From positions 62,001-126,000 of the forward strand of contig NOWV01000152.1 in NCBI GenBank assembly GCA_003344405.1: 64,000 bases of DNA, given 5' to 3'. The position numbers and the translations under genes were made by a program. Position 1 is the first letter of the stretch; each line of letters opens with the position of its first letter. The stretch is from Trichoplax sp. H2. Its lineage: Eukaryota. The notes beneath the pieces are model-generated. The model was not told the DNA's origin and made no database searches. It saw only the letters and a program-made list of their open reading frames with translations. Below, in pieces: positions 17,162 through 55,100 of the stretch.

Positions 17162-19018
17162 TTACTGTAAAAACAGAAAAAACAACAGTTAGTATTGAAA
17201 TAGATTGCTATTGTCAAGATTAAATTACCTAGTAATCTATTGGGTATCAAGGTGCATAGCTACTAAGTCATGAATTAAGTTATAGAGTCTAAGTACGCCT
17301 ATCCATTATTCAATTTTAGGATATATTGTTACCATAGCTAACACATACTGTATACAGTATACGTTCAGGACATTTAAGCTAATACTGCAATCTCTACCCT
17401 ATCTGTGGTACAGTAATAGCTACAGTTAGTATTAATGTTCTGAACATACCTTCTTCTTGCCAGCACCAACTTTAGCTTTGGCAGTACCACGTACTTTCTT
17501 TTGTCTGTTCTTTCTCTCCTTACGTTGTTTCCTAGAAGCCCTTTTCCTCTCCAAGAAACCCAACTGATCAAATAAGAATAAATTTTACATTAATATCCTT
17601 GATGTTATAATTCAATTTACTTCAAGGTCTATCAACGCTATATTTGTGATAACTCAATTCCATCAATTGAAAAATTTAAATCTTAATTCAAGTTTTGTAG
17701 CTCGATCAATAATATTGTAACAGCAACTAATTTTTACGATCACGTAATCAGTATTGACTGACAACTTACCCGAACCAAACGATGCTTGGGCTCAAATTTT
17801 TTAAGATAATCTAAATTATCGTAGATAACGGCGAAACCAGTGCTTTTACCACCACCAAATATTGTCTTGAATCCAAAGCAGATTATATGATCTGCAGCAC
17901 ATTTGTACATTTGAGCTAATCTTTCTTTAACGACAGTCTTTTTTACGGTAGCTTTACCAGGATGGAGGACATCTACGACCTAAATAGTTATTAGGCGAAA
18001 TTTAATTTCATAGTATCGTCCAATACAAAACATATCGAAAATCCTGCTATAGAGTAGCAATAAAACTGGTAGATCAGTATGAGCACTAAAGGATAACCAT
18101 AACTCAAAAATGTGCAGGATAATCACCCTAATATGGCCGACCCCGCCAACACTGGTACTGGCTAGGACCGTTATTGTAGTTACCAGAGTTGCAAATTACA
18201 ATACTTTCATACTGAACTGCCCCTGAACTAAATGCATTATCCAATCTAGTTTAGTTCAGAAATAGCCTTCAAAAAAAGCTTTCGTAGGAGATACTATATC
18301 ATTAAGATGTTATGTAACTAAACTGCAAATTACTGATATGACTGCAAGGTAAATAGAATACTAACTATAGGATGAGTTTACAGGAATCCATCAATGCCAT
18401 CTTCTCTCAGCTAAAATGGAATCGCCTCTGCAAACTGCTCTTATACCCACTGATTAATAGTAGTTACTCACTATGGATATTTTCTATTACTGCTGTACTC
18501 TATTCTGTATTTAAGAAATGATGTAGTGTACCAATCACAATTTAACGTTTACACTATAACAGAGGCAGAGAACACTTACCATTTGCTTGCGATTCAACAA
18601 GCGGTTGGTCATAAACTTGCGGGTTCGAATTGTGATAGCACCTTCGCTCTACATCATGATAATAGTAAGATAACATAAGTGCAATTTCAAGATCGAAAAT
18701 GACTACAACATCAATAAAGCCTATTTCGACATAATTAGGATCATTTGAAGCAATCTGTATTGCAATTCATGTTGACTAGCAAGCAATCTCTCAAGCCATG
18801 ATTACTACAACATGACTATGACTTAGGATGTGTAAGTTGAAAATCGATACAATGAATATTATCGTTCATCACACTATTCAATCTTGAATTAAATAATAAA
18901 AAATTCAAACCGAACGAAACAATAAGTTTTTTTCTTGAAGTTAACATCAAATGAAGGCTAACTAGTGCAGGATTAATTGGATATTGGATGGATTCGTATA
19001 CGATCGGCTACTCACCAT
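17162..19018 (-). CDS. RPS24: 40S ribosomal protein S24 (eS24), 132 aa
   Basis: Exons 19018-19016 (ATG only), 18648-18580, 17979-17770, 17563-17450, 17164-17162 (TAA only), all GT-AG phase 0. Protein [36 protein letters not shown]...[38 protein letters not shown]...[29 protein letters not shown] is unmistakable eS24. Confidence 0.98.
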
Positions 19019-20752: not shown

Positions 20753-21950
20753 TTACCTTCTTTGAGTGCGTTTATCGTAGCGCCTTAAAACAGAATTAAT
20801 GACCTCTGCAGTGTTCTTTGAGCTGGCGTCAGTAGTCATCTCTTTCTCCTTACTTTGTTGCTAAAAAAGTATCAATGATCAATCGTTTCAATTTACCTGA
20901 GATACATACACATGAGTGGTTTTCAAGCACACGCACTACAACTAACAATTTTTTAATCTTGAATAAATACATTACAGTTCAATGAAACAAACTTACAGCT
21001 GCAACTTGGTTCGTACATGCCATGAATGCTGTAATTTCCTTTCCACAAGCACTATCTTGAAACTCATTCTCCTTCCAACACGTCATTAACGCAGCCATTT
21101 CATTCAGGCACGTAGCATCTTTACAACATACAGATAGCATTGTTAAAGCAGAATTTATGTACGAAATGCCCTTCATAAAATATGAATTTACAATCAAGTA
21201 TTATTAAATAACAGCAACTAGCGCGAATTCAACGTTGTACAGTTATTTGCAGCTTTCAATTTTAAGCACTTTATGTCCATTTTTAAATGAAAGATTTTCT
21301 ATTTTATCAAAAGCATCGATGGCTTTCCTGTTTATTCTGGTGGTTACAGAGGATACCTCAATTTGACTAGAGCTATGTCGGTACTTTAATAGCTGAGATA
21401 AAAGGGCTGTCAAAATGATTTAGGCGTTTCTGATGGTACAGTATACTCGTCTAGGACATAAATTATCGGATCGACGAGGTGGTCCAATTTATGCTGTAAC
21501 TTATTTTGAATATTCCGACTTTGAGATAGTATAATAGGCAAAACTTGAACCTAGACAACACTTGTAATTAATGTCATCATTACGAGTGTAGACAAGTACA
21601 ACTGTCAGCAGACGATACAAAGTCTATCATACTTTAATTTGCACTCGGATCAATTGCAGTGAAATAGAACTGATCCTTGCATTGTAGACAGTATGCAGCA
21701 GCAATATTAATGAACGAGCTTCTGCAACAAGCAACGGAATCCCCCAACGGTATAACAGTACTGTACTATACAAGATATAAAGTCTTCAAGATTTACATCA
21801 CCCATGAATAAAGCGAAGTTTGATCATACATATCTAATGTTACTCACTGCCAACATTACTGCCAGTATTGGAAATGTAAGGCCTCAATTTCATTTCTTTG
21901 ATGAGACCTTTAACTCTTTTCTTGCACAATGCGCGTGTAACTTGCACCAT
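20753..21950 (-). CDS. CHCHD1: CHCHD1-like / mitochondrial ribosomal protein mS37 (twin CX9C), 110 aa
   Basis: Exons 21950-21848, 21118-20997, 20860-20753(TAA), GT-AG, phases 1 and 0. MVQVTRALCKKRVKGLIKEMKLRPYISN...ATCLNEMAALMTCWKENEFQDSACGKEITAFMAC shows the CX9C-X10-CX9C motif with the CHCHD1-typical 'C..EM..LM.CWK.N.F.D..C.KEI..F..C'. Confidence 0.9.
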
Positions 21951-22412: not shown

Positions 22413-23958
22413 CGTGTCCTGTCTTTCCTTTCGTCGTCGGTATGCCTAAAATAAAACGTGTCGTACAGTACGTGTACATTGTACAATGCAGCGTGTCGTA
22501 CATCCGACCGGCTGTCCGTAAATGGAAAGCAGAGTCTTCAATCTCTATCAGCTAGTTGCTCTACTCTAGCGTTGCAATCGGCATGTTTAGTGCCCTAAAA
22601 TTGCGATGGCCTATCATTTCATCGGCCATTCTACTAATTCTACTTTACTCTACTACTCAAACCGTCGACTGCACTATCCAAAACCAATCTTAGAATTGTC
22701 TTCTATACAATATTCGTACATAGGATAGTTCATTGCAATCCTATAAATTCATGCGACATAGTCAATGTGACCATGGTAATGGATGAGCATGGATACCATT
22801 TCAGCTTCAGTTACATCCTGGCAGTTTAGAAGTCCATAGCTAGTCTTACGATCACATAAGGAAGAAGTTCGAAAGTGTAGTAGAGTATAGCTTTGGTTAA
22901 TGATTCCATTCCTACTGATCTTTATGATGTAGAAATAGTTTTGAATCCATGACCAACACTGGATTGCAACATAGCTGATCATTACCCTCCAATTCCTCAT
23001 TTGGTCAAATTACGGCATGAAGAATTGTTTTCTTGAGTCCATGACTAGGAAAGGAGAGAACAGATAAAGTTATTGCAGAGTTGAAGTTCAACTGCAGTCA
23101 TTTCATTCCCTTTGATCTCTACCTTAGCCACATTAGGAATTTTTCATTTTGTAGGCCTTGAATAATGCTGGAATGAATTAAGCAAAGGGCATGAACGCAT
23201 ACATGAAATGCCTGTATCCCTTCTAATCTCTATCAGTGTCAAGCTTTTGCAGTAATTACTATTCTAGATGCCATAGCCAATGTTGGAATGGATTGCATAA
23301 AGGATATCAGAATAGAGTCATGTTAGAGTATAAATAGGATAATACCGTTCCCTCTGATGTTTATTATAGCCAACCTAGTAATAATTACTTGCAGTCTAGG
23401 ACTAACGTTGGCATTAATTAGATCAAGAATATAACTGTATATTAGAAATCAATTTGATTATTACAACTGTAAGAGTTAGGTAGAGTATTTGTGTGAATTA
23501 TTTTCTATTGAGCTACTATCACGCGGAAACTATAAATTGTTTCTTCTTACTTCACGGCTAGAAATAAAATTTTTTTTATGCCGTAAGGGTATGGTACAGC
23601 AAGAATAATTATGCCCTCACATCGTCATCACGGTTTATTGCTCCATGGTTAGATTGCTATAATGTTGATTTAAGAGACATCAGAATATGATAGAATATGA
23701 ATTAAATAACTCCTTCAGATCTCTATTGTAGTAAAACCACTAATTAAGTCTGATCTAATCTGCATGAAAGAGAGTAACGCATGTGCAGTATACTGAACAG
23801 AATATTAATGAATTAGTTACATTTCCTTTCTATATTCGTTGTACTAACCTGATGACTAAATCTCCACTGATGAAGTAATCACGGTTGTATAAGAACAATA
23901 ACCTCCAGAACGATTTGATAATATTGCAGAACGAAGCCAGAGTACCAGTAAAGTAAAA

Positions 23959-25383
23959 ATGGAGAAACATGAAGAGGATGCTATTAAGGAATGTTGGTCC
24001 GAACTTGTTAAGTCCATGCCGGTAGACCATATGAAAAATAAGCTATTTTCGAAGCGTATATTAGAGATATCTGATCTTGAAGCTATTGACGCTATGAATA
24101 CTATTAATAAAAAAAACCAAGAAATTCTAAAATTGGTAACGCGATCACAATCTCCTGAAACCTATAATATTTTCATTACTGCTTTGAGGGAAATCCCAAC
24201 TAGAAATAATATCTTAGCGGACATGGTTGAAAAATGTAATAAAAAGAGCGTATCTTATAACTCAAGCAGCAATACTGCGTCTGCCAATATAAATGCAGAC
24301 CAAACAGGTAAGCTTAATCGTAGGTTTAATATTAGTTGTTGGAAAAAATAAAACAATTTCACTACGGTATGCGATAAATCCGTTGCTATCTATCAATCTA
24401 TTACTAATTATATATTTTTAAGGACTAATTGTGATAGCAGAAATCATAAAATCAATTACTGCAAATAAAGATAGTATTCGTTAATCAGATAACAAGATTA
24501 CATCATGTTTGTCTAATGTTTAATATTAATATTGTAAATGATGAAACCAAGTTAGTCATAAATCTCATAGAATATCAGTAATGATTTCGCTATTACCGCA
24601 TACTTCAATCTTGATAGCGCTCACTAGTTCGAGCAATCAGATAAAATTTAAACCATATTGATGTTACATGATTTTATTTATCGGTTGTTTAACATTGTTT
24701 ATTTAAACTGATATTACAGACTCTGTTGGAGTTGACAAATCCTCTGCTTGCGGTGAGAAATGGGACGTCTTTTTGAGTTATTCGTGGAATAATAAAGACG
24801 AAGTAAAGAAAATTAAGAGTTACTTGGAACAGCAAAAGTGGAAAGTTTGGATAGATGATAATCGTGTTGCAGGTGGTCAGGACTTGGATTCAGTTCTTTC
24901 AAATGGAATTGAGGCATGCAAGGTAAAATCATGAAGAACGTCGACAACCAGTACTCGCTACTACATCGTAGGCTATTTTTCAGCGACAATATTACCTCTG
25001 AATAGGCTCTGATTCTGTAACTAATTGCTGATCCAATAAGTTGATGCACAGTTTTAAATCACTACTTACTTTTTGCTTTTGATTAACTTCGATCTTCTAA
25101 TTCTGGCTAGGTGTTCGTTCCGTGCTTAAATAGATCGTATGCTAATTCCGATAACTGTTACAGTGAATTGTCACATGCTAAAGACCTCAAAAAGTTTATT
25201 ATACCAATCGTTCTTGGTGATGTGGATCCTAAAAACGGTGGTCTTAAAGGCAAAAATGGTGACCTAAATTTTAAAATCACTGGCCTTACGTATATTAAGA
25301 TAAAAGACTTTGAAGATAAAGCAACGACGAATATAAAACTAAATGATTTAAATAAGGCAGTACAAGAGCGATTAATAGGATAA
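23959..25383 (+). CDS. CARD (death-fold) + TIR (TIR_2-like) domain protein, about 274 aa
   Basis: Exons 23959-24307, 24720-24922, 25111-25383(TAA), GT-AG, phases 1 and 0. The N-terminal ~90 aa fit the CARD helical pattern (ELVKSM...KLFSKRILE...KKNQEILKLV...YNIFITAL...LADMVE). The C-terminal TIR reads WDVFLSYSWNNKDEV...WKVWIDD...GGQDL...GIEACKVFVPCLNRSYANSDNCYSELSHAKDLKKFIIPIVL. Confidence 0.88.
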
Positions 25384-30587: not shown

Positions 30588-31424
30588 TTATGCTAAGTTA
30601 GTATCCTCCATTTCACTACTTGATGGGCATGGAGAAGTAGTGATAAAGAAGGCTATCTCATATGCGCTGCTAGGCTCTGCAAACTTCTCCTTAAATTCGT
30701 CTGCAATCCAGGAGACTTGGTATTTAAATTCGACTGTGGTCCTCGGGCTACTGATGGTCAAATTTTTAATTTCTTCTTTTGAGCATCCTCGAAAGTCACA
30801 GGTTTCATAAGTTCTAGTCTCTGGCTTACCAGGTGTAAGTTCTAACTGATTAACCTCTAGGATTGGAGGTGGCACGATCTTGGTTACAGTTCTTGGACTG
30901 CAGTTACTTTTTGTCTGTGCTTCTCTCTTGTGTCGGATGTGCTCTTCTGCAGCGATTTTGGACCGGTGATTTTCTGCAATGAATTTATTGTCAGAATCTC
31001 CAAGGCTGTTTTTTTGAAGGGGTTGCTGTGATGGCCGACCGCTGGCTATTGGCACTGTAACCATAATAGCAATGGTAACATAGATGAATAAGAATGCACT
31101 GGTTGAAGTTTGGTCAATCTAAATTTTAGGATCAAAATAATATATTTTGTAAAACATTAATAATTAATTAATATAATCAACCTGTAAATTGAATAAAAGA
31201 AAGAGCAATCTTTGACTGTTAATGCAAATAATTTCTGCTTCCAATTACTATTATTTATGCGTCAGAGAGTTACAGCGAACAATAACCCTATTTTCGCTAA
31301 TGAATATGCTGCGTATTAGTTATCTACGGTAATCGATAATTAAATAGGACTAGAGGAAATCTACAGAGTAAACTAGGACATGGAATAACCTTATACAATT
31401 AACTAATAGATTACACCTTACCAT
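30588..31424 (-). CDS. Secreted Cys-rich prepro-protein, copy A (cystine-knot/IL-17-like paralog, 4 Cys), 177 aa
   Basis: ATG-only exon 31424-31422 (ATG|gtaagg) plus exon 31118-30588 (tttag|att, ends TAA). Signal peptide MIDQTSTSAFLFIYVTIAIMVTVPIASG, furin-type site RHKR, mature part with 'YETCDFRGCSKEEIK...EFKY...SPCP'. Clearly paralogous to 49741-50506. Confidence 0.8.
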
Positions 31425-31521
31425 CTTCTTAAACGGAAGTTGCTGTAGGATTTTCTAAATCAAGTCCAAATCTTAAAGATCGAATAGCTTGTGAATAATG
31501 AAGTTCAAAGTGAGTGCAGTA

Positions 31522-31527
31522 CTTATA
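31522..31527 (-). promoter_or_regulatory. TATA-like box of secreted Cys-rich gene A
   Basis: TATAAG on the minus strand about 100 nt upstream of the ATG. The paralog has TATATAAG at an analogous position. Confidence 0.45.
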
Positions 31528-34287
31528 GATTTTAGTAGAGCAAACTTGGGGATATATTTCCATTTTTTGATTAGTTTTTCCCAATTTTTGTCATACGAAT
31601 TCTGCCTTCAAGATGTTTAATTACCTTTAGTCAAAGTAATGTCAATAATGTAAATATTAAATTTACTATAAAAATGTGTGCGTGGCAGGAAAAATAAATA
31701 AACAATTTCGTTAGCCTGCCTCCATATCATGGATAGGAATTAGTGGTCGGAATTTGACCGTAATACAATTTTGCCTCTCCACTATTCTATACTAATCAAT
31801 TAATTGATAGTATGCAACATAGTAGCCTATGTGGCCGAAATGATTCATAGTTCCAGGGAATTTAAGCTAAGGAATTTCGATAAATCTAAACTTAATCAAA
31901 CTGAATATTTGCAACTGATATCAGTCAATGGCTGTCGGAAAGGAGCAGCAATAAACGAAGCAACAATAGGTAAACTATAACTACTATAGATAATTTAATT
32001 TATTCAGTAGGTTAATTCGAAAGTCACATGTAAATGATCCTATTTCTGTACTATTTCCAATTAAATTGACATATCGAAAACGAAGACTGTCTTATTTTAT
32101 ATACAAACTAATTTTATCTTGTAGCGTAAAGTTGCAATCAATCATTTTGTATATTATTGAACAATTATGAGATATGCTTTGACTCTAAGAATATTTTGAG
32201 CAATCTACTTAGCAATTAAATTCATCATCTATTTCTAGTAATCAGTTAGAAAACATTCTGTTACTAAATTCTTTCTCGGAGAGATTGTCGTATATGTGTT
32301 AAATATTAAAATGATACAATTAGTGGAAAAACTGTCATGTCGAATTTAAGAAGGCTGACGATATGCTAGTAGTAGAACAGCACAAGTATTACGTAGTCTT
32401 CTATCAATACCATTTTAGAGTTGCAGTATCTGTTTGATCACTAATTGCTATTCGAAAATGGTTGTATGTAAATATATTTATCTATTTTTATACGTATACT
32501 AATCCTTGTCTACTTTGCGATCAACTAATTCACTTTAACTTGTGAATAATCCAATTAATCATTACTAACCATGACTGCAATTTTCTTAATTTGTTAAAAG
32601 AAAATATTTACCTATCGTCTTAGTGGTCCACTTTGAAGTTATATGAATTAGCTAATTTTAGAGAATTCATGGCAGTCCTGTATGATTAACAGAATAAAAA
32701 ACTTCTATATTTAAGTTTAATATATTTATGGTAGTCATGGGCTATACTGCTGGAATTAAACAACAGTGATGAATGGTGGGGAAATCAATCGATCGGTGCG
32801 GAATTATAATATTTTTGTTTTCCGTCCATATATTGTTTGGACAGGTACCTGCGAACGATGACATCATTGTATAAATTTTCTCTCTTAAATTTACCAGTTG
32901 ATTAAATAAATGCCGTAACCTCACTAAATAGTTATTTTTATAGATTGCAATTAATAAGAATAGGAAATGTAGTCATCCATATGAACTGGCGGAGAATGTT
33001 TCATTGCATTTCATAATTCGGCCTTTAACACTTTAATTTCTATTTCGTCCTATTATAGCATTATGGAGATGGCGTAAACAATGGATTTATTTTGGGCTAG
33101 TTAATGTAAATTTCCGTGCTTGTACTTCTAGGAAAAATCAAATATTAATGGGTTTGATAAAATCCATTACCCCGTCTTTCCGTAAGGGTATTACATATTA
33201 AAATAAGACCTAAATATACATTTATCACTTGGTACTGTTGGACAAGCCAATTTTATGCAATGAAGTAAAATTTTAGAAGAAATTTTAGTTATTACTAGCC
33301 CATTTTGTATTTCACGATAAAAATTAGACAACGAGGTAACTTTAGATCAAGTTTAATTGACACCCTCTTGCATGGCTATAACGTTAAAAAGTAATTATGG
33401 AACGCAGTACAGGCAATGTAAACGGTATACTGTAGTCACACCTTCTTCGATTGCTTCGAGTATTGCCATTTCTATATAAATCTTTACTATTGTGCTGCAA
33501 ATAGACTTTAAAGGTTTGGATATCGCTTAGTAAGCTATTAGGTCCATTAATGCAGCGTTACAAAATCTTGCTCTATAGCATTGCTTTTCAGCACAATAAA
33601 AGAGATACTACGATGTGATAGTAAGGCTGCAACTTCGATCATTTTATTCTTTATTCCTTTAAAATTTATTATCGGTGTATAGTTTATGTATTGCATTAGG
33701 ATAATTATTTTCATTACTATTACTCACACTAATATGAAAAGAAAAATCTCCTAAGAGTTAATTTCCTTTCCAAGCTTATTTGGGTTACAATCATGTCAGT
33801 GACTATCACAGTGAATTATAATTTTACTTAGTACGTTAGTATTTTAATTCTGGATTTGATAGTATGTTACTTTGTTATCTTCATAGTACGAAAGTTCTAT
33901 TCAAATTACTTGATTGACTAAACTTCGTTTTCCAGGAAATTTATTTTTAAAATAAATTGATATTTATAGTATACATATATAGTCTGTAGTTAGAGAAGAA
34001 AATCTATTATCTACGTCGATGCTAAAAAGAATATAGCTGCACTACTTTGAATTAGATTAATTTTACTCGTTTTATATACCGTATACTTTACTTCATTATA
34101 TATTTATAGCCTATATGCTAATTACCATTTTTATCCCCAAAATTACAAGTGTTTATAGTGTAATAGATTTTTCTCATTAAATATCGTTGCTTTCGTCTAT
34201 AATACCACGCAAGAACGTCATCAGTTGTTTTCTTTCTGCATATTACATCATTTCCAATTCTTCACACTAGATTACAGTAAATAAAGA

Positions 34288-37200
34288 TCAATGTATTCCC
34301 AGAAGACCCATTGTAAATAATGCTAGACCTATCGATAATAAAGTATATAAAGATAGTCCAGCTGCTCCGTTGACTTCAGTAGAATCCGTTGTTATTGCTG
34401 CAGTATTAGGTCCTTGCGTTGACGTTGCATAAGGCAATGTCGTAATGGAGGCTACATGAAATCAATACCAATCAGGTAAAAAGTTACTCTAAAGAATTTA
34501 GGCAGGGGTTAAAGAATTTTCAATTTATACTACCTAAATAATTCTATCCTGAAATTTAATTTTTACATCTCGCAGTGAGTTAAATTTTATGCTAGAGAAA
34601 ATTTATAGAATAACTAGAAGTGAGCTTTCCATTTGATAATTTACGTGGCGCATGACTATTGGTCAATTTATATTCTCGTTCGTGTTTCTAACAGGTAATA
34701 GAGATTAAAGTAAAACCTATTTTTAGGTTATTTGTGATTTATCTTCTGATGTTTACATAATTAATCTAGCTATACTTGAATGAAACAGAATTTAATTTGT
34801 CTGCTAGTTTAGGCTAAAGAAAGACTTTCACCTACGTTAGCTTTTCTAGAAGCTTAGAACTAATAGCAATAACCAATGCTAATAATTAATAGTCAAATGT
34901 CAAACAAGATATGAGAGTGAATATGGCAGAGTTGCTTTTTTAACATATATAATTTTCGATCATGTCATTTACACCGTCTTTAGTTATACTAAACATTATC
35001 GTCTTTTAAAGTCAATTCTGATGTAAGAAATAGCTAATTTGCATAAGTAATGCCAATAATACGAATATAATTTAATCTAAAGGTAAAAGGTGTAACATAA
35101 ATAGTTATTACAAGGGATTTTAAAATTTTACATTCCGGTATAGAAAAAATTTTTTGGTTTTCTTGACATTTAGTGCTATCATCATTTAAAACCTACGACA
35201 ACATTTTGGATAAAGACTGTTGTTCATTCAAGTATAGTAATAATTTAACGCTAAAAGGTTAATATGTTATAAACCATGCGATCATAATTATGGTTGTTCT
35301 ACAGCCATAAAATACAAACTAACACTACACTAATACAGCAACTAAAATCAATGGTCGTTGATATTCAAGTACCGTAAATTTTTTTAGAATCATTAATCTG
35401 TATGCACACTGGTATTCATTAGGAGTATAATAAGATTTGATCTAGGACTTTCAACTCAAGTGAACCGATAAGTTTAAAGAACGGTCTTAGATTTAAAGAT
35501 AAGAAATTGATTTACTTTCTCTAGTAACTGAATAATTTCACCTTTTAGCGTCGTTGCTTCGTAAAGCTTCACTAACTTTCATCAATAGCACATTAAAGCC
35601 AGAAAAGTAATTTGGAACTATTCCTTTTTAATCCTATCTTTATACTAGAAATTAGGAAATACTTTCGTGTACTGAAATCTTGATTGACTTTCTTATTGCA
35701 ACTCGGTAATAGCATACGGACACCACTTCTAGTCCATAGCTAAGTTTAAAATCATAGCTTTGCGCGTACTCCAGGAGGTAAGAGTAAACTGATGATTTAA
35801 TAGGGAATTCTAGTAGTATACGTTATGGATGTTACTATCTAAAGCTTAGAAATAACTTTTAAATACTATTTGGTGATAGAATTAATTTTTGTACTTAACA
35901 TACTTGTAAGTAGCTGAATATCGAGCGTTTTTTTAAAATCGATTGCCTTGCTCTGAGTTACTGAGTTGTGGAGATTCCTACGGTTATAGTTATATTCTAT
36001 CACAATATTATATTACAATCAGTCTGTAGCCTATTTACCTCTGTGGCATAGATAATTCAGCTTACTATCGCAACTCTCAGTCAGTAATTGCCAATGAGAG
36101 AGGAAAAGTGAGACGCATTTTTGAGCCCCTTTTGCTAATTCAGGTAATCGACTCCATCCTGGACTAGCTAGGTCAAATTTTTGTCCGTTGATCCATTTAT
36201 ATTCGTAGTACTTTCCAGAGTCGCCTTGAGTGGCTTGCATACCGATCCAAGCTAAGGAACCATAATTTTTATATAGCCGTTGTACTATTTGGGCCATGCT
36301 TGAGTCCAAGAGCAGTAATAATGTTCCATTCTCAGTAATACAAGAATTGTTGGCTTCATTCCATTCTAGATGGCTGCCATTAAATAGCTTAAAGCAATCG
36401 GTTCTAAGATTATCTTGGTGCATAAGCCAATTATCAGGGCAAGTATGGATTTGTGAACTAGCTATAAAGTGGCAACGGAGTATCATATTAGTTTTTATGC
36501 CAGCTGTAAATGAATCATCTTCAGTTGAGACGCTTACAATAAAATAATTAAACAGATTTAAATAAAGAAAATAATTTGCAAAGATTGATTTTAATGGGCT
36601 ACAATTTATATTGTCCAGCTATGTAACTGATGAACGCATTTTTGCATACATGATGCTAGCTGAGTTTTAAGAGCAGTGAAACTTAGAGTTCACAAAATGT
36701 TCTGTAGCCAGATTTACTCGCAATTGATATAGTTAACATAATGGAACTAAATTACAACGTGGCAAAAAATTGTAGTGTAGGAAAGTGTGGTAATAATGTT
36801 TATTACAAAATTTATGTCTTAATAATAGTTTTTGTTCGATGTATTATAAACTTCTTCTCTTCAATAATAGTATTTATAGACTAACTCAGCTCTTATTATT
36901 GCACAATAAGACAAAAAATTGTAGAGTAGGAAAAGTGTAGTCGCATTGCACATTTTAATAAATGAAATTCCTTTAAGAGATACGAAATAGGATATACGAT
37001 AATCAATAATGCATACTGATATAGCTATGGCAAGCCTAACATTAATTTCTATCAAAATAAAGTTATATTTCTCAGTAGTAACCTTTAGAGCTAGCAATAC
37101 GTTCCACTACTTTACAATGTGATAAATGCTATGATATTTGGTAGAGTCTGATGATGTATTTTATTATGGATGTAGTAACGATCAAATATAAATAGAACTG

Positions 37201-46681: not shown

Positions 46682-49600
46682 ATTAGCATCTCTTTAGCTT
46701 GCATTACTAGAGTAACTGTTTTCTTGGAAATTCAAAGTGTAAGGCATCGAGCATAGTTATAAAATGGATAATCGCAGTTGGTAGTAAGACTAGACCATAA
46801 ACAAATGGAGAAATAAGCTTTGTGTTGAATAATATAATTTGATCAGCAATAGTATATAAAGATTTTAATAGTAGCAGTAGTTGTGCATCTATGCGTAGAT
46901 AACATAATTTTTTTCAATGACAATAATCGATAGTTAGATAGCTAAGTTTATTTATATAATTTACACACAAAAACATCAACATAATTAAAAATACAGTATT
47001 TGCTGATATCTGTATGTTTTAATTACCGTACTGTAGATATTTCAAGCACTTGCACGAGTAGATTTTAATTCAGTGTCAGATATGATGACTCCTAAGATTT
47101 GTTGTTCGCCATTGATTTTAATACGTAATAAAATTTTGCTATAGTGGAAAAACTGGGCAATCGGTGTATTGTGAGATGGTGTCACTAGCGAAGGATCTCA
47201 GTTACTTTCCAGTTTATTGGATTAAGGTGCACCTATTAAATTTTAATTTTAATAGCATAGGTCACGGTTCGAGCTGATTGATCGATTGAGTTAGTTAAAT
47301 TTTTCCAGTTCCATCTCTGCACCAAGGAACTTTAATTTAAAGTATGAGTTCCAAATCTTTAAGAAATCTAAACAAATGTTAGGCTCTTACTTATATAAAG
47401 TTATAAAAGTACATTCGTATCAAGTAAATCGCATATGAATTTCCGTATTTTGAAATGCGGGTAGGGTTACTGCGACGCTACACTCTTCGAAGTCTCTTGT
47501 CATTATACAATCAATGGTTTATGTATAAATTTCCAACTCATAAATTTTTGCCGGATTTTCAAGTAATAGAGTGACATGCGATGATATTTCTTTGTCTCCG
47601 TAAAGATGAAGACAGTTATAGAATACCAGTATATCATTTGACAATGATCTTAGCCCGTTATATGTATAGCTGACAAAACTATTAAGAAATATAAACCCTT
47701 CAGTCATTTAAGTCTTACATTATGGATGTTATTTCTGTTTCCTATATTGATAACGACGTTAAGCTCACGAGAGACTGTTGTTATCTTCAATTAGGATTAT
47801 TATAATGCCATATACTGTATAATACAGTATTTGCTGTAATAGACGGTGCATATTTTTAGATTAATATAACATAAATTTGCTGCATATGGTCAGGATAAAT
47901 AAGTAATTGGCAGAATTCTTACGACAGTTCTCTCTCTTCAGTAGCTATCACATAAATGCAAACGAAATTTACATTTTCTGAGCACCTAGTAATAAAATTA
48001 TGATGCAGCCCTAATGATTTAATACTACCTTTTTCATTAATAAGTGAAACACTGTAAACACTTTACTGCTACTACGATAACAATTCAAGTTTTACGTCAT
48101 TTAAGGTGGTCTTTGATCTTTGACGGTCCATACTTAATAGTATAGCGAAAGATCCTATTAATCACCAGCTACCGGTACTGCTCACTAGCACTTTATCCAG
48201 CATAATCTTCTATGTACAAGTATATTCAAATCTCATTAGGTTATAATTTCGCAAATAACTAAGTAATAAGCATTGACAAAAATGAAAAGTAGCAACAGTT
48301 AAGGTTGCTTTTCACTTTAAGAGAGTTTTAAATTTATCGCGAGCGGCGATTATGAACTGTGAGGCATATTGAATAATTACTACACGTATATTCAATGGCG
48401 CTATCGTTATTACCATTTCTTGCATCCCTTACTTAGATCACACATTTTAGATTCCGTTTTCTGCCGATACTTAACTAGGAAAGCAATCGGTTGCTATAAT
48501 ACTAGGATGCTGATCACATATTTTGCACTCCCGGCATCTTATGAAATATGAAGTTCTCATCTAAGGTAATCTTAATCTTAATCCATGGGAAAAATTATCC
48601 AATCCGTAATTCCTACTGTATATTTTGAGTCCAATTTTGACCTTCATAGGTTTGTTAATTACCGCTTACTGTTATGTTTATTTTGTTGCTTTTGACAGTA
48701 TTTTATTTTATGTTAGATACAAAATCGTAAAAATAAGTCACTTGTAATATTTTTTTCCTTTTCGGTCTTACATTCATAGTACCGGGTATAGGAAAAGGAT
48801 ATTAAACTTTCTAAATTGGATAAGCCGCACACATGCAATCAGCTAGAATTGTTCTGTTCTATTTGAATTATTGAAAGCTATTCATTAATTATAAAGACCT
48901 AGTATACCATTACTAAATGGTAGATCATCTTATTAAGTCAAGAATGATGCTATACCTCATTTTGTAATACTAGTGTTAAATAACTGTTTATTTTGTATCT
49001 TTAGTTTATAATATCCGCAGTATAGGAATTTCATGATAAAACTTTCGCTAATTAATTAGTGTTATATGAGAATCAGTAAATATCAATGAGAAGAGACACA
49101 CAGAATTTACTTATTCAATTGTCCATTTATTTAATTCGAAATACAATTACACGTACGCACTTCAATGGTTACACCACTGACCACTGAGTCAGTCATCGAA
49201 ATGGCAGGAGTTACAGTTGTCACATCAATTCTGCATAGAGTTCTATCATTAAAATTAATTAAAGTGTGTATGAAATACAATAAGAGCCTACAAGGCTGTA
49301 CGTTATGGAGATTTCAGTCGCACAATACCAATATGAGTGCTGCTTGAATAATTAAGTAATTTTCAATACACCTATATTCCTCATAGTTTCGCTGAAAGTG
49401 GTTATCATAGTAGCGATACCTGCATTATTTATTCGCTATACACGTATATAAACATATATAATTATATAAGAAGTGTTTTTTCCTGTAATACTTTCAATTT
49501 ATACAGTATATCACTACAAGTAGAATGCATTTGACCTGCATATAATTTAGGTCAAAATTGCTGCTAACATTGTGCAAGATAAAGGCTACAGATATAATTT

Positions 49601-49740
49601 TCCACGTATTATTCTACTTTTAGCTACTATATTTCCGGTATTGTCAGCATAACTTCTTTTTTACAAGTTGTGACTATTACTGTACGATATAAGTGAAAGT
49701 AATTTAAGATTATAGTATCAATTTGAGTATTTTTAGCATA

Positions 49741-50506
49741 TTACGGGCATGAACAGTTATCTGGAACGAGTATGGATAATGTTACTTTTTTGTCCGTTGA
49801 CGGCCAGGTACTCTCTGGTGCATTATATTCAAATTCTATTCGCTTTTTTTTATTCGAGCTTTCACACGCTTTAATTTCTTTTGGCGAACAGGCTTTGTAA
49901 CTACACTTTGCATATAAATGTCCAAGTGGGCGGCCGTACCCGTAACTGGCTGATATCCATGGAGCCGGGAAGAATTTTCGTTCTTGCTCGACATGGCAAG
50001 GTGGATCGAATTCATTAATTTTTGGTGATCTTTTAACAAAGGCTGATCTATCGTTGGACTCTTTCGTGTTATTACCTTCATTCAAATCGGACGAATTAAA
50101 TTTATTCTCCTTGGCTACTGCTTTTGAATAGTCAGCCGGCCACGCACTACCGTATGGTAGAACGACTAAAATAATCACAATAAATGCAATTGCCGACAAT
50201 TTTGAAATGATCGAGTGTACCTAAGTTTTAAAGATAGAATAAATCCGTCAGTATAAAACTTATTGATTTAATTTATTTTTAAGCTAGCAATCAGTTCTAC
50301 TCGACGTAGACCAATAACTAAAAATTGTAATTGTTCTAATCACTTGAATATAACGTTAATAACTAACTTCTCATAAATGACTATTATACCGACAATTACA
50401 ATTATCATTGTATTTGATTAAGATTTAGTACCGCCGTATCCACTAGAACAAGTTAAATAATTAAACTATTAGAAAAAATGATTAATTTATTAGTGAGTCT
50501 TACCAT
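49741..50506 (-). CDS. Secreted 6-Cys prepro-protein, copy B (cystine-knot cytokine-like, IL-17-like motifs), 160 aa
   Basis: ATG-only exon 50506-50504 (ATG|gtaaga) plus exon 50220-49741 (cttag|gta, ends TAA). Signal peptide MVHSIISKLSAIAFIVIILVVLPYGSA, dibasic KR site, mature part PPC...PAPW...LYAKCSYKAC...KAC...ILVPDNCSCP. Confidence 0.85.
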
Positions 50507-50655
50507 TTTACTGCTTGATGGAAATGATGAATTGATTAAAACCGGCTTGAGATATTGCAAATTTAATTTATCCAAATGGAGGACAACCTTATTAGTTTTG
50601 CTGTTTTGCTCAGGAGCTAGTGCTGGATAGCTTAAAATTAGAAAAAAAATTCTGG

Positions 50656-50663
50656 CTTATATA
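50656..50663 (-). promoter_or_regulatory. TATA box of secreted Cys-rich gene B
   Basis: TATATAAG on the minus strand about 150 nt upstream of the ATG exon. Confidence 0.45.
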
Positions 50664-52032
50664 GCCTGCTGAATAACTATTTGATGCATACATGCAGCGA
50701 CGGTTATCGTAATTAGGGAGAAATTTTGGTAGAGAATGTTGGATTATTTATTGATCTAAAAAAAATAAACATTGCTAAAATAGAACTCATCGGTAGCAAT
50801 GATTTCATTGAGGATAGCTTAAACTTGAATTTATTGACTGTCTAAGTATGACTCATTATTAATTTATCAAAGAATAAACCGTAATACAATACTGAGATAT
50901 TGCAGTACTCAGTTAATCATTATTAAATACGTAGCTTAGATCCCATTGAGTACCAATACAGTATGTTTTAGGTAGAAATAGAGGATTTATCATATTTGTA
51001 CTTCCCACTGATAGTAGCGTTGCCCCCCGTCTTCCTGAAAGACGCCATTGGTAGTGTATGTGATACGTCTACCTATATTGCTATACAGTTGTACTTGTAT
51101 GATTAGGAGGGAAAATGCAAATTCCAACAGAACTTTACAGTACATGAATGTAGTTATTTACAGAATTTTCTTAAATCATTATATGCCCTAAATCAAAGAT
51201 TGTATGGTATTTATTCCTGTTTTACTATTCTCTTGGAGTCAAAATTCTAAATCGCTCAAACACCATTGCTACTGATCTTGTTCATACTTGCCAAGATACG
51301 TCAATATCCTAAATATAACTAGATTTACCCATCTAATTATGCTTTACTACTACACAAAATTGATGACTATTGTACGTATAAGTTACACTTTTACAGTCGT
51401 GTGATAAATAGATAATTACTACAGAACATCCATTTCACGGCACTTTGATAGTTAATGCATTATTAATATTATAGCAGGTCTATAAATACCTCAAAGTTCA
51501 AAAACCTGTAGTACCCGATTTAATCGGTGTAGTCATTTATAGTGACAGTCTGACGTAATGAGATTGGTTGGTATTGACTTATTGTTAATTGATCAGTTTA
51601 TATAGAATCTTCAATGCCGTTTAAGCTCTTTTATTAATTTCTACGTATTCGCATTCAAATTATATCATTACATAAATTTCATCATGTTGTATCGAAAGTT
51701 TCAATTAGGCGGACGTCATTGTTTAGTAATTCTAAGAGAAAGGTGTTGCTTAATATTACAACACAGCAAAACCTTTTTGCATATATACTACAGTGATACG
51801 ATAACTATTAATAATCTATCTATATATAGATATCGTGAATACACTTAACAACTACCTATCCAGCTGATTACGTACAGATGCAATTTTACTTCCTAAATTT
51901 TAAGAGCTAATCGTAAATGCAACCCTTTAAAACGTTAGAGTATTATAATATTTTGTGTCGTGGCATCCAAATCGGTTTAATTAATTACACCAAGATTTAG
52001 TAAAAATTTATCAATTGTGTTTGGATGGTAAA

Positions 52033-52049
52033 TATATATATATATATAT
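52033..52049. repeat. (AT)n microsatellite
   Basis: tatatatatatatatat. Confidence 0.85.
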
Positions 52050-52160
52050 CTGTCTTAATTTGAGATTATATTTCAGTATTAGCATAGATTTTTGTTAAAG
52101 TATATATACAGTACAATTAATTTCAGGGATGCATTCTTAGTTTTCATTTACATTGACCTT

Positions 52161-55100
52161 TTAAAGTACATTCATTAGTAGCGTGGCTAAAATCACGCTC
52201 GTCGTAAGCAAGATACTCCGTGATGATCTAGTTGCCCCGTTAATCTCGGTAGACTCCAATGGAGCAGCGGTTGCTCTTACAATTTTTTTTGTGACACTTG
52301 ATGATGCTGATGTAGTTTCTACATGTGGGGCTTTAGAAGTAGTGGCTTCGGCTGATGCTAATGATAATTGATATTTCAAATAAATTGTAAGGTTAAGAAC
52401 TTAACATAAATTCTATTCGTAGTTAGAAATAAATAGATAATTACTACAGAACAGTCCATGCTGTACACGGCGTGAAATATTAGCTTTGAACAGATAGCAT
52501 TGAATGCATTATGTAATAGTTGTTAACTTACTTGAACATGAATGCGTATTGCATCGATATTGGCGAATTGATGGGCCTTGACATCCAGCTCCATCACCTT
52601 GTGGTGCGGGATTAGTACACGTTCTTGTCGAAATAGTGACACCACCGCCACATGGAGCACTACAAGAAGTGTTCTGCCACTTGGTCCATTGACCATCCGC
52701 GCCACCTAATTGCACGATTGAATTAAAGATTTTGTTCGAAAATTGAGAATGAGGTATAATAAAGTGATACGAGCATACAAGTGCTATACAGTCAATGATA
52801 GAGCAAATAATAAAGCACATTTTATTTTTACTTTTAAATACTAATTCTAACCTTTATGGCAGAGGTAATTCATCTTGCTGTCACACGTTTCACTCACTAA
52901 TTTCCAATGTGAAAGAAATAGTGAGACGCATTTTCCTGCTCCTTTTCCAATCGTTGCAACGGAGACCCACGACGGGCTACTCAATGTAAAATTTTGTCCA
53001 TTTAACCATTTGTAGTCATTATAACTTCCAGCCCCATTGCCCTGTGCTGCCTGCATGCCGATCCAAGCTAAAGCTGACATTTTGTGATAAATTTTTCTGA
53101 CCATGGCTGCTATATCTGGACTTACTATCTGTAGTAGGGTTCCGTTCGAGACTGCACAAGAGACTTTCGCATCGTTCCATTCAATGTGGCTGTTGTTAAA
53201 CAGGCGAAAGCATTCAGTTCTTTGTCCATTCTGGTGTAAAGTCCAACCGCTTGGACACGTATATCCATGGCTGATGCCTATAATTATTTGTTTATAAATT
53301 GAATATTTGTCAGTTGTCATTAGAGGAAAATTGGAGACGAGACACAAAAATCAGTCCATTCTATCATCCGCTTTTGACATTATAGTAATTTGAATTACTT
53401 TCAAAAAGAAGTACTTGCTCGAGTACGTTGTATATCGCATGAAAATAGCTAAGATTCCTTTATACAGTAGTTAGTCAAAGTCAACATCACTAAGAGCTTT
53501 TCGATCAAGTTCAATAGACGGACCGATGTTTTTCATACTATTGGACTTGATCCGAGTTTTTTTTGGATACTATTTCAATTTTAATAGTAATTTCTGTCGT
53601 TGACTATACCAGATTTGGATTGACAGTAGTAGTTAGCACAGCATACACTAGCCGTAAAGTATTACTCTAGTTTACGGCAATGTCTTACTGCATCTGGTAG
53701 ATGGCAGATTAATAGATGGAAAAAAGGCGCGGCTTTATCAAAGTTATCAAAGTTATTCCAATTCACAATAGTACAGTACTGTACTACTAGGATGGCTAAT
53801 TCAGTGAAACACGTCAATACGAAATAGGGCAATCCGATCCTTATTTCAAGTGTCAATATTCACAACGACTACAGTAATGGTAGAAGCACTCTCTTCTTTT
53901 AATAGCAATCCAGTAAGACTCACCTATTTGATTGATGAAGAGTACGGAAAAAAATGCCTGAATAAAAAAGGAAATAATGCAAGAGAATAGGATTAGTTTT
54001 AAAATCACGTGCAAACTTCTTCATTTTAAACTTGCGTAAAAAAGTACAATATACTATTCAACTATATTGTCCACTTTTACGCTAAACCGGTAGAATGCTA
54101 TAGTTAGTATGATAATACAATTAGAATGGATGCATTGTAGTACGATGATATTTTTAGGAACTAAGTCATTTATTATTGCAATTGATTGGAATAGCATCGA
54201 TCTGTATCCCGCTGCCAAGATGAATTTGTGGTACAGGATGTTGTAAAGTAAATAGAAGGGTCTGCAGTTATTTATAGAATTGTTGTATAATGGATTTACT
54301 GGATGCTATTCAATGCTCAAATAAATATAGTTATCCAAAATTGCTCATCATTGTTACCATGGCTATTTTATTTCACTCCAGTTTGAAAAATATAATGAAA
54401 AGTGAACTAATTTATCACGGTTTTCTATCCAAAGGGCACTATGCCAACATGTACTGAAAGTGAGAAAAAGCAATCGCTACCATCTTTGAGTGAAGTGAAA
54501 CTATTTTTATTGCCCACTTGGCTACCGCTCGATCCAAGTCATTTAATATTACCGTACAGTATCAAGATGATTGCATGACGTCAGATATCAGGAAGTTTTT
54601 AATGTTTAAATATGCGCCACATTTTACTACTCCAACTTCCGACTTGTAACATTCCAACAAATCTTTGTCACCGATAATACTATTGAAGTTAGCGAAGAAA
54701 AGATAATTTTAAAATTTTATTTCATTTTGGATAGGGTTGTTGGGTAGTGTTGATGAAAGTGGAATGTACTCTTGGTAGGCGCTATTTTGATGCAATGAAT
54801 TTCTGTCAGTAACATTATGGATGATACAGCACCATGATTTGTTGCATCTTGATAAACTACCATCAATCTCTTTTACACCATCATCGCCTAAGAAATGTAT
54901 TTTACAACAAGTAAAATAAAATTGACACAGTAGAAATAGGAGGTGGTCAACGGCTCCATCTATTGCGATTTTACCGCTTGAGTTGATGCTCACTTGTAGA
55001 CAATCGTCTGATATTGAGTGATTCAACAATCATTCTACAGTATAGAACCCTTGGACTCATTTTCATGTCAACCAATGACTGTAGAACTGCACAAAATACG

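What the first reader, a model, noticed from the sequence alone, without database searches (positions are those of the whole stretch)
49741..50506. Secreted 6-Cys protein with IL-17-like / cystine-knot cytokine motifs
Seen: signal peptide, pro-region ending in KR, and a mature domain with C...PAPW-x15-AKCSYKAC...C...ILVPDNCSCP. Known: IL-17A has SPW-x17-AKCRHLGC...ILVSVGCTCV and lacks the third knot disulfide (Ser in place of two Cys). Inference: this protein has IL-17-like spacing plus two extra Cys, so it could be a full six-Cys knot intermediate between IL-17 and other cystine-knot factors (Trunk/PTTH, Noggin, NGF/Spaetzle). That would be a candidate early-animal cytokine or hormone of an unannotated family.
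Basis: partly seen in the sequence, partly recalled or inferred. Interest (0 to 1): 0.8.

Follow-up and report, generated by a model that had tools for sequence, protein, structure and literature searches.

The report
Placozoan secreted cystine-knot-like ligand gene
A small two-exon gene in a Trichoplax-type (placozoan) genome encodes a secreted six-cysteine protein that probably folds like the cystine-knot growth factors, but a specific kinship with interleukin-17 is not supported.

Summary
On the minus strand an ATG-only exon (50504-50506), a 283-nt GT..AG intron and a 159-codon exon (50220-49741) encode a signal peptide, a low-confidence pro-region ending in KR and a 95-residue six-Cys domain.

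It belongs to a small family seen only in placozoans plus one unnamed contig set. A paralog lies in the window at 30588-31424. Named relatives are TrispH2_009210, TrispH2_009211 and TRIADDRAFT_52791.

The Cys spacing C-x30/33-C-x4-C-x7-C-x36/38-C-x-C is kept in 4 of 5 members. AlphaFold models give two beta-hairpins with a helix between them. Foldseek's top rows are nearly all cystine-knot growth factors, led by PDGF/VEGF, but no hit reaches E <= 0.001.

The IL-17 reading is weak:
- No member matches Pfam IL17 or any other knot family.
- IL-17A ranks 14th and 42nd among Foldseek hits.

Best reading: a pro-protein processed to a cystine-knot-type extracellular ligand, subfamily and receptor unknown. 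The gene itself appears unannotated.

The parts
50657..50663 (-). TATA-like box (TATATAA), about 150 nt upstream of the ATG
   Evidence: It is the only TATAWAW match in the 400 nt upstream of the ATG on this strand. A promoter role is inferred, not shown.
50504..50506 (-). Exon 1 coding part: the start codon only
   Evidence: ATG is followed directly by GTAAGA. Paralog p2 has the same layout, and a public 177-aa protein (P0009) equals M plus p2's exon 2. The public paralog P0008 starts MVHSII, matching M plus this gene's exon 2.
50221..50503 (-). Intron, 283 nt, phase 0, GT..AG
   Evidence: Donor GTAAGACTCA and acceptor ..AAAACTTAG. The p2 intron is 303 nt and sits at the same place.
49741..50220 (-). 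Exon 2: 159 codons plus TAA stop
   Evidence: Open frame. It contains no Met at all. A gene finder that misses the ATG-only exon therefore cannot call this gene.
50143..50220 (-). Signal peptide (with the Met of exon 1), predicted to end at ..PYGSA
   Evidence: Hydropathy maximum 3.9 at IAFIVIILVVL. LPYGS is shared with P0008 and P0006. The cleavage point is inferred by eye; no signal-peptide program was run.
50029..50142 (-). Pro-region of 38 residues, ending in the dibasic KR
   Evidence: pLDDT is below 50 throughout. The aligned column pair reads KR, KK, KK, NR, KR in the five members, so it is dibasic in 4 of 5. Proteolytic processing is inferred.
49744..50028 (-). Mature six-Cys domain, 95 residues: C-x30-C-x4-C-x7-C-x36-C-x-C
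   Evidence: Cys positions are. The model has strands 76-84, 101-109, 125-133 and 145-153 and a helix at 113-122, with block pLDDT 67-88. Foldseek neighbours are cystine-knot factors.
30588..31424 (-). Paralog p2: ATG 31422-31424, intron 31119-31421 (303 nt), exon 2 31118-30588 (176 codons plus stop)
   Evidence: tblastn in the window gives E 2.8e-06 and blastp E 6e-09, at 25% identity. Public models are P0007 (158 aa, internal Met) and P0009 (177 aa). It lacks Cys4 and Cys6.

Best explanation
This is a protein-coding gene of a placozoan of the Trichoplax lineage. It belongs to a small, fast-diverging, lineage-restricted family of secreted pro-proteins.

Proposed mechanism:
1. The signal peptide takes the protein into the secretory pathway.
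2. A subtilisin-like convertase cuts after the dibasic KR.
3. The released 95-residue domain folds as a cystine-knot growth-factor-type module. Finger hairpin 1 lies between Cys1 and Cys2. The C-x4-C and C-x-C pairs close the ring. A short helix carries Cys4. Finger hairpin 2 lies between Cys4 and Cys5.
4. The domain acts outside the cell as a ligand for a surface receptor that is not yet known.

Shown: the gene structure, the family, the conserved Cys pattern and the predicted topology.

Inferred: secretion, cleavage, disulfide connectivity, any oligomeric state and the ligand role.

The subfamily (PDGF/VEGF-like, Spaetzle/NGF-like, Trunk/IL-17-like) is not resolved by the evidence.
For: Gene reality:
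- About 0.03 open frames of this length are expected by chance.
- The splice sites are canonical, and the ATG-only exon 1 is shared with paralog p2.
- That exon model is used by a public annotation of p2: P0009 equals M plus exon 2.
- P0008 starts MVHSII, like M plus this exon 2.

Family:
- The exhaustive phmmer run found 4 proteins at E <= 0.001, of which 2 are true relatives (P0002 at 8.1e-16, P0005 at 3.0e-04) and 2 are repetitive proteins.
- The profile search added P0008 (43% identity, 99% coverage) and P0007.

Cys pattern: the spacing is identical or near-identical in 4 of 5 members. Cys1, Cys2, Cys3 and Cys5 are invariant in 5 of 5.

Pro-protein: the dibasic column is kept in 4 of 5 members, and the N-terminal 64 residues have low confidence.

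Fold:
- Two AlphaFold2 models (this gene: core blocks 67-88 pLDDT; P0008: core blocks 73-93) give the same hairpin-helix-hairpin layout.
- By entry description, 24 of 43 listed Foldseek PDB rows for this gene's model are cystine-knot factors, and the first 9 are all PDGF.
- For the P0008 model the figure is 30 of 38 rows, with the first 15 all knot factors (PDGF, sclerostin, GDF5, VEGF-C, PTTH). The best is 4qci_C at E 0.063, probability 0.92.
- In the viral library the only compact match is an iridovirus VEGF.

Language-model neighbours:
- Mature domain: Cys_knot/DAN clusters at 0.87-0.84.
- P0006: 0.93-0.90 to clusters with minority NGF, IL17 or Spaetzle labels (11-39% of members) and one with Noggin on 53%.

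UniRef's own name for P0006 is 'Spaetzle domain-containing protein'.
Against: - No Foldseek match reaches E <= 0.001 in PDB or BFVD (0 in each). TM-scores normalised by target are only 0.28-0.48.
- Both models rest on the same shallow five-sequence alignment, so they are not independent. AlphaFold may be steered by the Cys pattern.
- 0 of 5 members match any cystine-knot Pfam family at E <= 10.
- Profiles of the family find no knot protein among PDB sequences at E <= 10.
- The ESM Atlas model of P0006 is poor (pTM 0.38), and its structural neighbours have TM <= 0.36.
- Paralog p2 lacks Cys4 and Cys6. These are not partners in a canonical knot, so either p2 is re-paired or degenerate, or the connectivity is not canonical.
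- This gene has no self-hit in the protein collections, and no transcript data were at hand, so expression is unproven.
Confidence: 0.65

Rival explanations
1. It is an IL-17 family member, or a six-Cys stem form on the Trunk/IL-17 line. It would then signal through a SEFIR-type receptor.
For: - C-x4-C and C-x-C spacing is conserved in the family. I recall the same spacing, with Gly before the second Cys, for IL-17. Here Gly holds that place in 4 of 5 members.
- IL17 labels appear on 13-20% of members in three of the nearest ESM clusters for P0006.
- IL-17A chains appear in both Foldseek lists: E 1.3 at rank 14, and E 1.0 with probability 0.54 and TMt 0.42 at rank 42.
- PTTH (5aoq_L) is at rank 13 with TMt 0.44 and rmsd 5.8 A.
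- Trichoplax sp. H2 has a SEFIR transmembrane protein and a SEFIR-death-domain adaptor with no known ligand (PMC6321704, passages read).
- Trunk is described as the closest relative of IL-17, and the pathway is placed after poriferans and before cnidarians (PMC11087794, section 10 read).
Against: - Pfam IL17 matches 0 of 5 members at E <= 10.
- No IL-17 chain is found by the sequence profiles.
- IL-17A superposes at rmsd 18-28 A and ranks behind PDGF/VEGF, GDF5, sclerostin and PTTH.
- All six knot Cys are present, whereas IL-17 is described as forming two intrachain bonds from four Cys (PMC4517768 introduction).
- A long pro-region with a dibasic site is, by my recollection, not typical of IL-17.
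- Published surveys report no IL-17 in T. adhaerens (PMC4517768). They also report no moulting-pathway components, Trunk among those examined, in Placozoa (PMC6660194 figure legend).
Confidence: 0.1
2. It is a divergent PDGF/VEGF-type factor that signals through a receptor tyrosine kinase.
For: - PDGF-B and PDGF-A chains fill the first 9 Foldseek rows for this gene's model. They fill 8 of the first 10 rows for P0008, followed by VEGF-C. Best hit: E 0.063, probability 0.92.
- An iridovirus VEGF is the only compact hit in the viral library.
- The overall Cys spacing is close to what I recall for PDGF-B and VEGF-A, except for ring size.
Against: - Pfam PDGF matches 0 of 5 members.
- The ring is C-x4-C, not the C-x-G-x-C that I recall for PDGF/VEGF.
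- No extra Cys is available for interchain bonds.
- No Foldseek hit is significant.
- The ESM feature neighbours are NGF, IL17 and Spaetzle clusters rather than PDGF.
Confidence: 0.15
3. It is a Spaetzle/NGF-type neurotrophin-like ligand, as UniRef's automatic name for the paralog suggests.
For: - UniRef names P0006 'Spaetzle domain-containing protein'.
- The nearest ESM clusters carry NGF (17-39%) and Spaetzle (11-25%) labels.
- It has a pro-protein layout with a basic cleavage site.
- Spz1C appears in the first Foldseek list (rank 13, E 1.2).
- A CARD+TIR gene lies 5.7 kb from p2. This is proximity only.
Against: - Pfam Spaetzle and NGF match 0 of 5 members at E <= 10 in the 2025 Pfam copy.
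- The Spz1C hit has probability 0.09 and is absent from the listed rows for P0008.
- True Toll-like receptors are reported absent in Placozoa (PMC6321704).
- The C2-C3 spacing that I recall for NGF is much longer.
Confidence: 0.15
4. It is a secreted Cys-rich protein of another fold, for example a defence or adhesion peptide, and the knot-like models are artefacts of a shallow alignment.
For: - There is no significant structural or profile match anywhere.
- Only five sequences support the models.
- p2 loses two Cys that are not canonical partners.
- The neighbouring genes encode lectin and TSP1 domains typical of recognition proteins.
Against: - The first 9 and the first 15 Foldseek rows are all cystine-knot factors, out of a library of 350,542 chains.
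- The order Cys1 / hairpin / C-x4-C / Cys4 / hairpin / C-x-C matches the superfamily layout.
- Core pLDDT reaches block means of 88-93 in the P0008 model.
- All ten of the best ESM hits that carry a family share a family or clan.
Confidence: 0.2
5. It is an unexpressed or decaying duplicate, not a working gene.
For: No protein matching it is in either collection, although p2 and the other paralogs are. No transcript evidence was available.
Against: - The frame of 160 codons is intact in a genome with a stop probability of 0.077 per codon.
- The six Cys, the dibasic site, the signal peptide, the GT..AG intron and a TATA-like box are all kept, despite only 42% identity to the nearest paralog.
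- Exon 2 has no Met, which by itself explains a missed gene call.
Confidence: 0.1

Closest known systems
Trichoplax hypothetical proteins TrispH2_009210 (RDD40148.1), TrispH2_009211 (RDD40147.1) and TRIADDRAFT_52791 (XP_002109102.1, UniRef B3RKC2)
   Same: - Same family: 42% and 38% identity over the mature domain.
- Identical Cys spacing.
- Same MV(H/R)S..KL start and LPYGS signal-peptide end.
- Same dibasic column.
   Different: - They are most simply paralogs at another locus. p2 of this window is letter-for-letter identical to public proteins, while this gene's best public relative is only 42-43% identical.
- None has a described function. A search for their four identifiers found 0 papers.
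PDGF/VEGF family (PDB 4qci, 1pdg, 3mjg, 3mjk, 4bsk)
   Same: - They are the best structural neighbours of both models.
- Six-Cys knot order, and hairpin fingers on either side of the ring.
- Overall spacing is similar (recalled).
   Different: - No Pfam PDGF match.
- C-x4-C ring instead of C-x-G-x-C (the latter recalled).
- No interchain Cys.
- E-values of 0.06-1 only.
Interleukin-17 family (Pfam PF06083; PDB 7uwn, 4hsa)
   Same: - C-x4-C and C-x-C spacing, with Gly before Cys3 in 4 of 5 members (the IL-17 side is recalled).
- Minority IL17 labels among ESM neighbours.
   Different: - Cys1 and Cys4 are present.
- There is a pro-region.
- No Pfam match.
- The PW and AK letters are not conserved.
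- The structural match is poorer than to PDGF.
Spaetzle / NGF neurotrophins (PF16077, PF00243)
   Same: - Pro-protein cut at a basic site to release a C-terminal knot domain (inferred here).
- UniRef's automatic name for the paralog.
- ESM neighbours.
   Different: No Pfam match. The structural match is weak. Toll-like receptors are reported absent in placozoans (PMC6321704).
Trunk / PTTH (PDB 5aoq chain L)
   Same: - Six-Cys knot with a short Cys3-Cys4 gap (recalled for PTTH).
- Pro-hormone processing.
- Foldseek rank 13, TMt 0.44, rmsd 5.8 A for the P0008 model.
   Different: E is 0.47 only. A survey that included Trunk says Placozoa lack the components it examined (PMC6660194 figure legend). 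The ring spacing differs (recalled).

Membership tests
Cystine-knot growth-factor superfamily | Six Cys in the order C1 ... C2-xn-C3 ... C4 ... C5-x-C6 | tested here: met
   C-x30/33-C-x4-C-x7-C-x36/38-C-x-C in 4 of 5 members. p2 lacks C4 and C6.
Cystine-knot growth-factor superfamily | Two long beta-hairpin fingers on either side of the ring segment | tested here: met
   The models give strands 76-84/101-109 and 125-133/145-153 with a helix at 113-122. The P0008 model has the same layout. These are predictions from a 5-sequence alignment.
Cystine-knot growth-factor superfamily | Significant structural similarity to solved members | tested here: inconclusive
   0 hits at E <= 0.001. The best is PDGF-B at E 0.063, probability 0.92. 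By my reading of the descriptions, 24 of 43 and 30 of 38 listed rows are knot factors.
Cystine-knot growth-factor superfamily | C1-C4 disulfide threading the ring made by C2-C5 and C3-C6 | not testable with these tools
This needs disulfide mapping or a solved structure.
Cystine-knot growth-factor superfamily | Sequence-profile match to a member family (Pfam clan) | tested here: not met
   0 of 5 members match at E <= 10. PDB sequence profiles give no knot protein.
IL-17 (PF06083) | Match to the IL17 profile | tested here: not met
   0 of 5 members at E <= 10.
IL-17 (PF06083) | Only two knot disulfides, with the C1/C4 pair missing | tested here: not met
   Cys1 is invariant in 5 of 5 members and Cys4 is present in 4 of 5. 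The defining feature is as described in the PMC4517768 introduction.
   Pro is invariant, but W occurs in 1 of 5 members and AK in 1 of 5.
IL-17 (PF06083) | C-x4-C ... C-x-C ring spacing | tested here: met
   C-x4-C in 5 of 5 and C-x-C in 4 of 5 members. That IL-17 has this spacing is recalled, not tested.
IL-17 (PF06083) | Signals through a receptor with a SEFIR domain | not testable with these tools
   Only 64 kb of the genome was at hand. The literature reports a SEFIR transmembrane protein in Trichoplax sp. H2 (PMC6321704).
Spaetzle / NGF (PF16077, PF00243) | Match to the family profiles | tested here: not met
   0 of 5 members at E <= 10. UniRef's name for P0006 says Spaetzle domain, and this Pfam copy did not reproduce that.
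PDGF/VEGF (PF00341) | Match to the family profile, with a C-x-G-x-C ring | tested here: not met
   0 of 5 members at E <= 10. The ring is C-x4-C. The C-x-G-x-C definition is recalled.
Trunk / PTTH | Structural or sequence similarity to PTTH/Trunk | tested here: inconclusive
   5aoq_L is at rank 13, E 0.47, probability 0.57 for P0008, and is not among the listed rows for this gene's model. No Trunk sequence was available for a profile test.

The most novel reading that the evidence does not exclude
The family is the placozoan branch of the Trunk/IL-17 stem. It would be a full six-Cys knot that already has the C-x3-G-C ring of IL-17, and it would be the missing ligand of the orphan SEFIR transmembrane receptor and SEFIR-death-domain adaptor of Trichoplax. 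That would move IL-17-type signalling to before the placozoan/cnidarian/bilaterian split. It would also give a living intermediate between neurotrophin-like knots and IL-17.
Probability: 0.1. Interest if true: 0.8.

Novelty: new member of a known kind. Interest (0 to 1): 0.45.

Why it matters
Placozoans have no neurons and few described protein ligands. Published surveys report no IL-17 and no true Toll-like receptors in them, and one survey that included Trunk says they lack the components it examined. Yet they carry SEFIR and TIR signalling parts whose inputs are unknown (PMC4517768, PMC6660194, PMC6321704; passages read).

A lineage-restricted, tandemly expanding family of secreted knot-type proteins gives concrete ligand candidates to test against those orphan receptors.

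The gene also shows how an ATG-only first exon hides small secreted-protein genes from annotation.

Tried and rejected
- **Pfam on the whole protein, the mature part, p2 and all five members:** no knot family. Only chance-level matches (APOBEC-type, Herpes_UL46 and others, at E 0.012-0.3).
- **PDB sequences, single protein and two profiles:** only chance hits such as FAF1, aq_165, CBF3 and KLF4.
- **Word-indexed search with the single protein:** 13 candidates, none scored.
- **'Longer' proteins (302-2000 aa) with the family profile:** none among 8000 scored candidates, which the tool calls weak evidence. 'Shorter' proteins were not searched.
- **Exhaustive search:** two of its four hits (P0003, P0004) are repetitive proteins and were set aside after reading them.
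- **Viral structure library:** nothing significant.
- **Rfam on the window:** 0 matches.
- **Tandem repeats at 48000-52500:** none.
- **Further family copies in the window by tblastn:** only this gene and p2.
- **Pfam on 47 of the 62 short minus-strand frames (30-54 aa) near the two lectin genes:** 0 families. The other 15 were overlapping frames that I dropped.
- **Homodimer test of the mature domain (complex prediction, two copies):** 'no answer'. The score was 0.00 in both runs, the partner's own fold was uncertain, the alignment was not used and no controls were folded. This says nothing for or against dimerisation.
- **Profile-profile comparison with IL-17, Trunk, Spaetzle, NGF and PDGF alignments:** could not be done.
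- **Papers' supplementary files:** closed. I could not check whether these proteins are listed in supplements, for example among the placozoan 'Burs/GPH-like' peptides of PMC4079206.
- **Closed collections:** Viral contigs and metagenome contigs were not searched. The bacterial/archaeal genome-contig scan was not used.
Full report
**Observation**

The region 49741-50506 holds, on the minus strand, a two-exon gene.
- An ATG at 50506-50504 is followed at once by GTAAGA.
- The intron is 283 nt and ends in TTAG.
- A 159-codon frame runs from 50220 to the TAA at 49743-49741.

The translation has a hydrophobic N-terminal core (11-residue Kyte-Doolittle maximum 3.9, against 1.2 at most beyond residue 35). 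It has a dibasic KR at residues 63-64 and six Cys at 75, 106, 111, 119, 156 and 158.

A frame this long is expected about 0.03 times by chance in the window. A TATA-like box lies about 150 nt upstream.

**The family**

A tblastn of the window found one paralog, p2, at 30588-31118 (E 2.8e-06, 25% identity; blastp E 6e-09). p2 has the same odd structure: ATG at 31424-31422, GTAAGG, a 303-nt intron, then the whole coding body.

The single-protein word search found nothing. The exhaustive phmmer search of 1.84 billion representatives, run with the mature 95 residues, found four proteins at E <= 0.001:
- P0002 (8.1e-16) and P0005 (3.0e-04) are real relatives.
- P0003 and P0004 are repetitive proteins.

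A profile search added P0008 (43% identity, 99% coverage) and P0007. No protein of 302-2000 residues scored.

The sources name three of them:
- P0002 is TrispH2_009211.
- P0008 is TrispH2_009210.
- P0006 is TRIADDRAFT_52791. UniRef also calls it 'Spaetzle domain-containing protein'.

P0005 comes from unnamed assembled reads.

P0007 (158 aa, from an internal Met) and P0009 (177 aa) are two public models of p2. Read side by side, P0009 equals M plus the exon-2 translation of p2. So a public annotation already uses the ATG-only exon.

P0008 begins MVHSII, like M plus exon 2 of the gene under study.

The window is therefore placozoan, of the Trichoplax lineage. The named proteins are most simply paralogs at another locus.

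The gene under study gave no self-hit in any of the three searches. Its exon 2 has no Met. It seems to have escaped annotation.

**What is conserved**

In the five-member alignment the invariant residues are Cys75, Pro87, Cys106, Cys111, Ser112, Phe130, Tyr132, Lys145 and Cys156.

The spacing C-x30/33-C-x4-C-x7-C-x36/38-C-x-C holds in 4 of 5 members. p2 lacks the fourth and sixth Cys.

The column pair at the proposed cleavage site reads KR, KK, KK, NR, KR.

What is kept is C-x4-C, mostly with Gly before the second of these Cys, and C-x-C after a hydrophobic strand.

**Fold**

AlphaFold2 on the five-sequence alignment gave two models.
- This gene: overall pLDDT 63, with the first 64 residues below 50 and core blocks of 67-88. 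It has four long strands in two hairpins (76-84/101-109 and 125-133/145-153) and a helix at 113-122 that carries Cys119.
- Paralog P0008: the same layout, with core blocks of 73-93.

The order Cys1, hairpin, C-x4-C, helix with Cys4, hairpin, C-x-C is, from established knowledge, the layout of cystine-knot growth factors.

Foldseek against the PDB gave no hit at E <= 0.001 for either model. The lists are nevertheless dominated by that superfamily.
- This gene's model: the first 9 rows are PDGF chains, and 24 of 43 listed rows are knot factors.
- P0008 model: the first 15 rows are PDGF, sclerostin, GDF5, VEGF-C and PTTH, and 30 of 38 listed rows are knot factors. The best is 4qci_C at E 0.063, probability 0.92, TMt 0.42.

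The sorting of rows is my own reading of the entry descriptions. For complexes I also used chain length.

IL-17A chains appear at rank 14 (E 1.3, rmsd 28 A) and rank 42 (E 1.0, rmsd 18 A). Spz1C appears at rank 13 of the first list with probability 0.09.

In the viral library the only compact match is an iridovirus VEGF (E 0.39).

The protein language-model search gave two sets of neighbours.
- Mature domain: Cys_knot/DAN clusters at 0.87-0.84, which the tool rates as a lead only.
- P0006: clusters at 0.93-0.90 with minority NGF, IL17 or Spaetzle labels and one with Noggin on 53% of members. All ten of the best hits that carry a family share a family or clan.

**What argues against**

- No member matches any Pfam family of the knot clan at E <= 10.
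- Two family profiles find no knot protein among PDB sequences.
- The two models share one shallow alignment.
- The two Cys missing from p2 are not partners in a canonical knot.
- The homodimer job returned no answer and is listed only among things tried.

**Mechanism proposed**

The protein is secreted and cut after KR. This releases a 95-residue knot-type domain that acts as an extracellular ligand.

The gene, the family, the Cys pattern and the predicted topology are shown. Secretion, cleavage, connectivity, oligomeric state and ligand role are inferred.

I put 0.65 on this reading. Within it the subfamily is open:
- Structure favours PDGF/VEGF.
- Feature neighbours favour NGF, Spaetzle or IL-17.
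- The ring spacing recalls IL-17.
- The short Cys3-Cys4 gap and the pro-hormone layout recall PTTH/Trunk. These two comparisons are from memory.

**Literature**

- No IL-17 homolog was identified in T. adhaerens (PMC4517768, passages).
- IL-17, IL-17R and CIKS are said to appear first in cnidarians, with Trunk as the closest relative of IL-17. That paper's main text does not mention placozoans (PMC11087794, find and section 10).
- A survey that included Trunk states in a figure legend that Porifera and Placozoa lack the components it examined (PMC6660194).
- Trichoplax sp. H2 has no true Toll-like receptor. It does have a SEFIR transmembrane protein, a SEFIR-death-domain adaptor and two CARD-TIR 'MyD88-like' proteins (PMC6321704, passages).
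- Placozoan 'Burs/GPH-like' knot peptides were reported (PMC4079206, passages). Their identities are in supplements that I could not open.
- A search for the four identifiers of the named paralogs found 0 papers.
- Searches for Trichoplax with 'cystine knot' (7 papers), placozoa with IL-17 (18), placozoa with SEFIR (5) and Trichoplax with VEGF and PDGF (13) listed nothing whose title, abstract start or read passages describe this family.
- A paper on placozoan secretory cell types does not contain 'cystine', 'cytokine' or 'growth factor' in its main text (PMC12013895).

**Verdict**

The general idea of a knot-type secreted factor in an early-branching animal is supported at moderate strength. 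The IL-17 link is not. The gene is an apparently unannotated member of an uncharacterised placozoan family within a known superfamily.

Noticed in passing
window 23902-24931 (+): A CARD exon (E 5.2e-09) is followed by a TIR_2 exon (E 9.6e-11) on the same strand. This is the CARD+TIR 'MyD88-like' architecture that PMC6321704 describes for Trichoplax. It lies about 5.7 kb from paralog p2. It is proximity only; no link was tested.
   Followed up: partly
window 30588-36618 and 49741-53350 (-): A two-gene block is duplicated in tandem. In each copy a C-type lectin gene (with a TSP1 exon in the second copy) lies upstream of a knot-like gene. tblastx gives collinear matches 36465-36037/53281-52850, 34398-34309/52268-52179 and 30830-30720/49935-49825. 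In those matches the lectin parts are 48-62% identical, while the knot genes are only 25% identical overall (blastp).
   Followed up: partly
window 30588-31118 (-): Paralog p2 has lost Cys4 and Cys6 together and has a longer tail and an insertion before the last strand. Those two Cys are not partners in a canonical knot. So p2 is re-paired, has free thiols, or is degenerating.
   Followed up: no
window 49744-50220 (-): Exon 2 of the gene contains no Met codon, so the only start is the ATG-only exon 1. This may be why no public protein matches it. p2 has an internal Met, and a truncated public model (P0007) starts there.
   Followed up: partly
window 10095-16141 (+): A frame with a hydrophobic stretch (10095-10592, no Pfam match) is followed by two C2-domain exons (14306-14752 and 15773-16141). 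This looks like a synaptotagmin-like gene.
   Followed up: no
window 17743-17979 (-) and 20982-21200 (-): There is a ribosomal protein S24e exon (E 5.4e-29) and a CHCH-domain exon (E 2.2e-10).
   Followed up: no
proteins P0003 and P0004 (library hits, not in the window): Two long repetitive proteins scored E 1.5e-05 and 1.2e-04 against the 95-residue query through many short repeats. They are an example of false positives at these E-values in the large library.
   Followed up: yes
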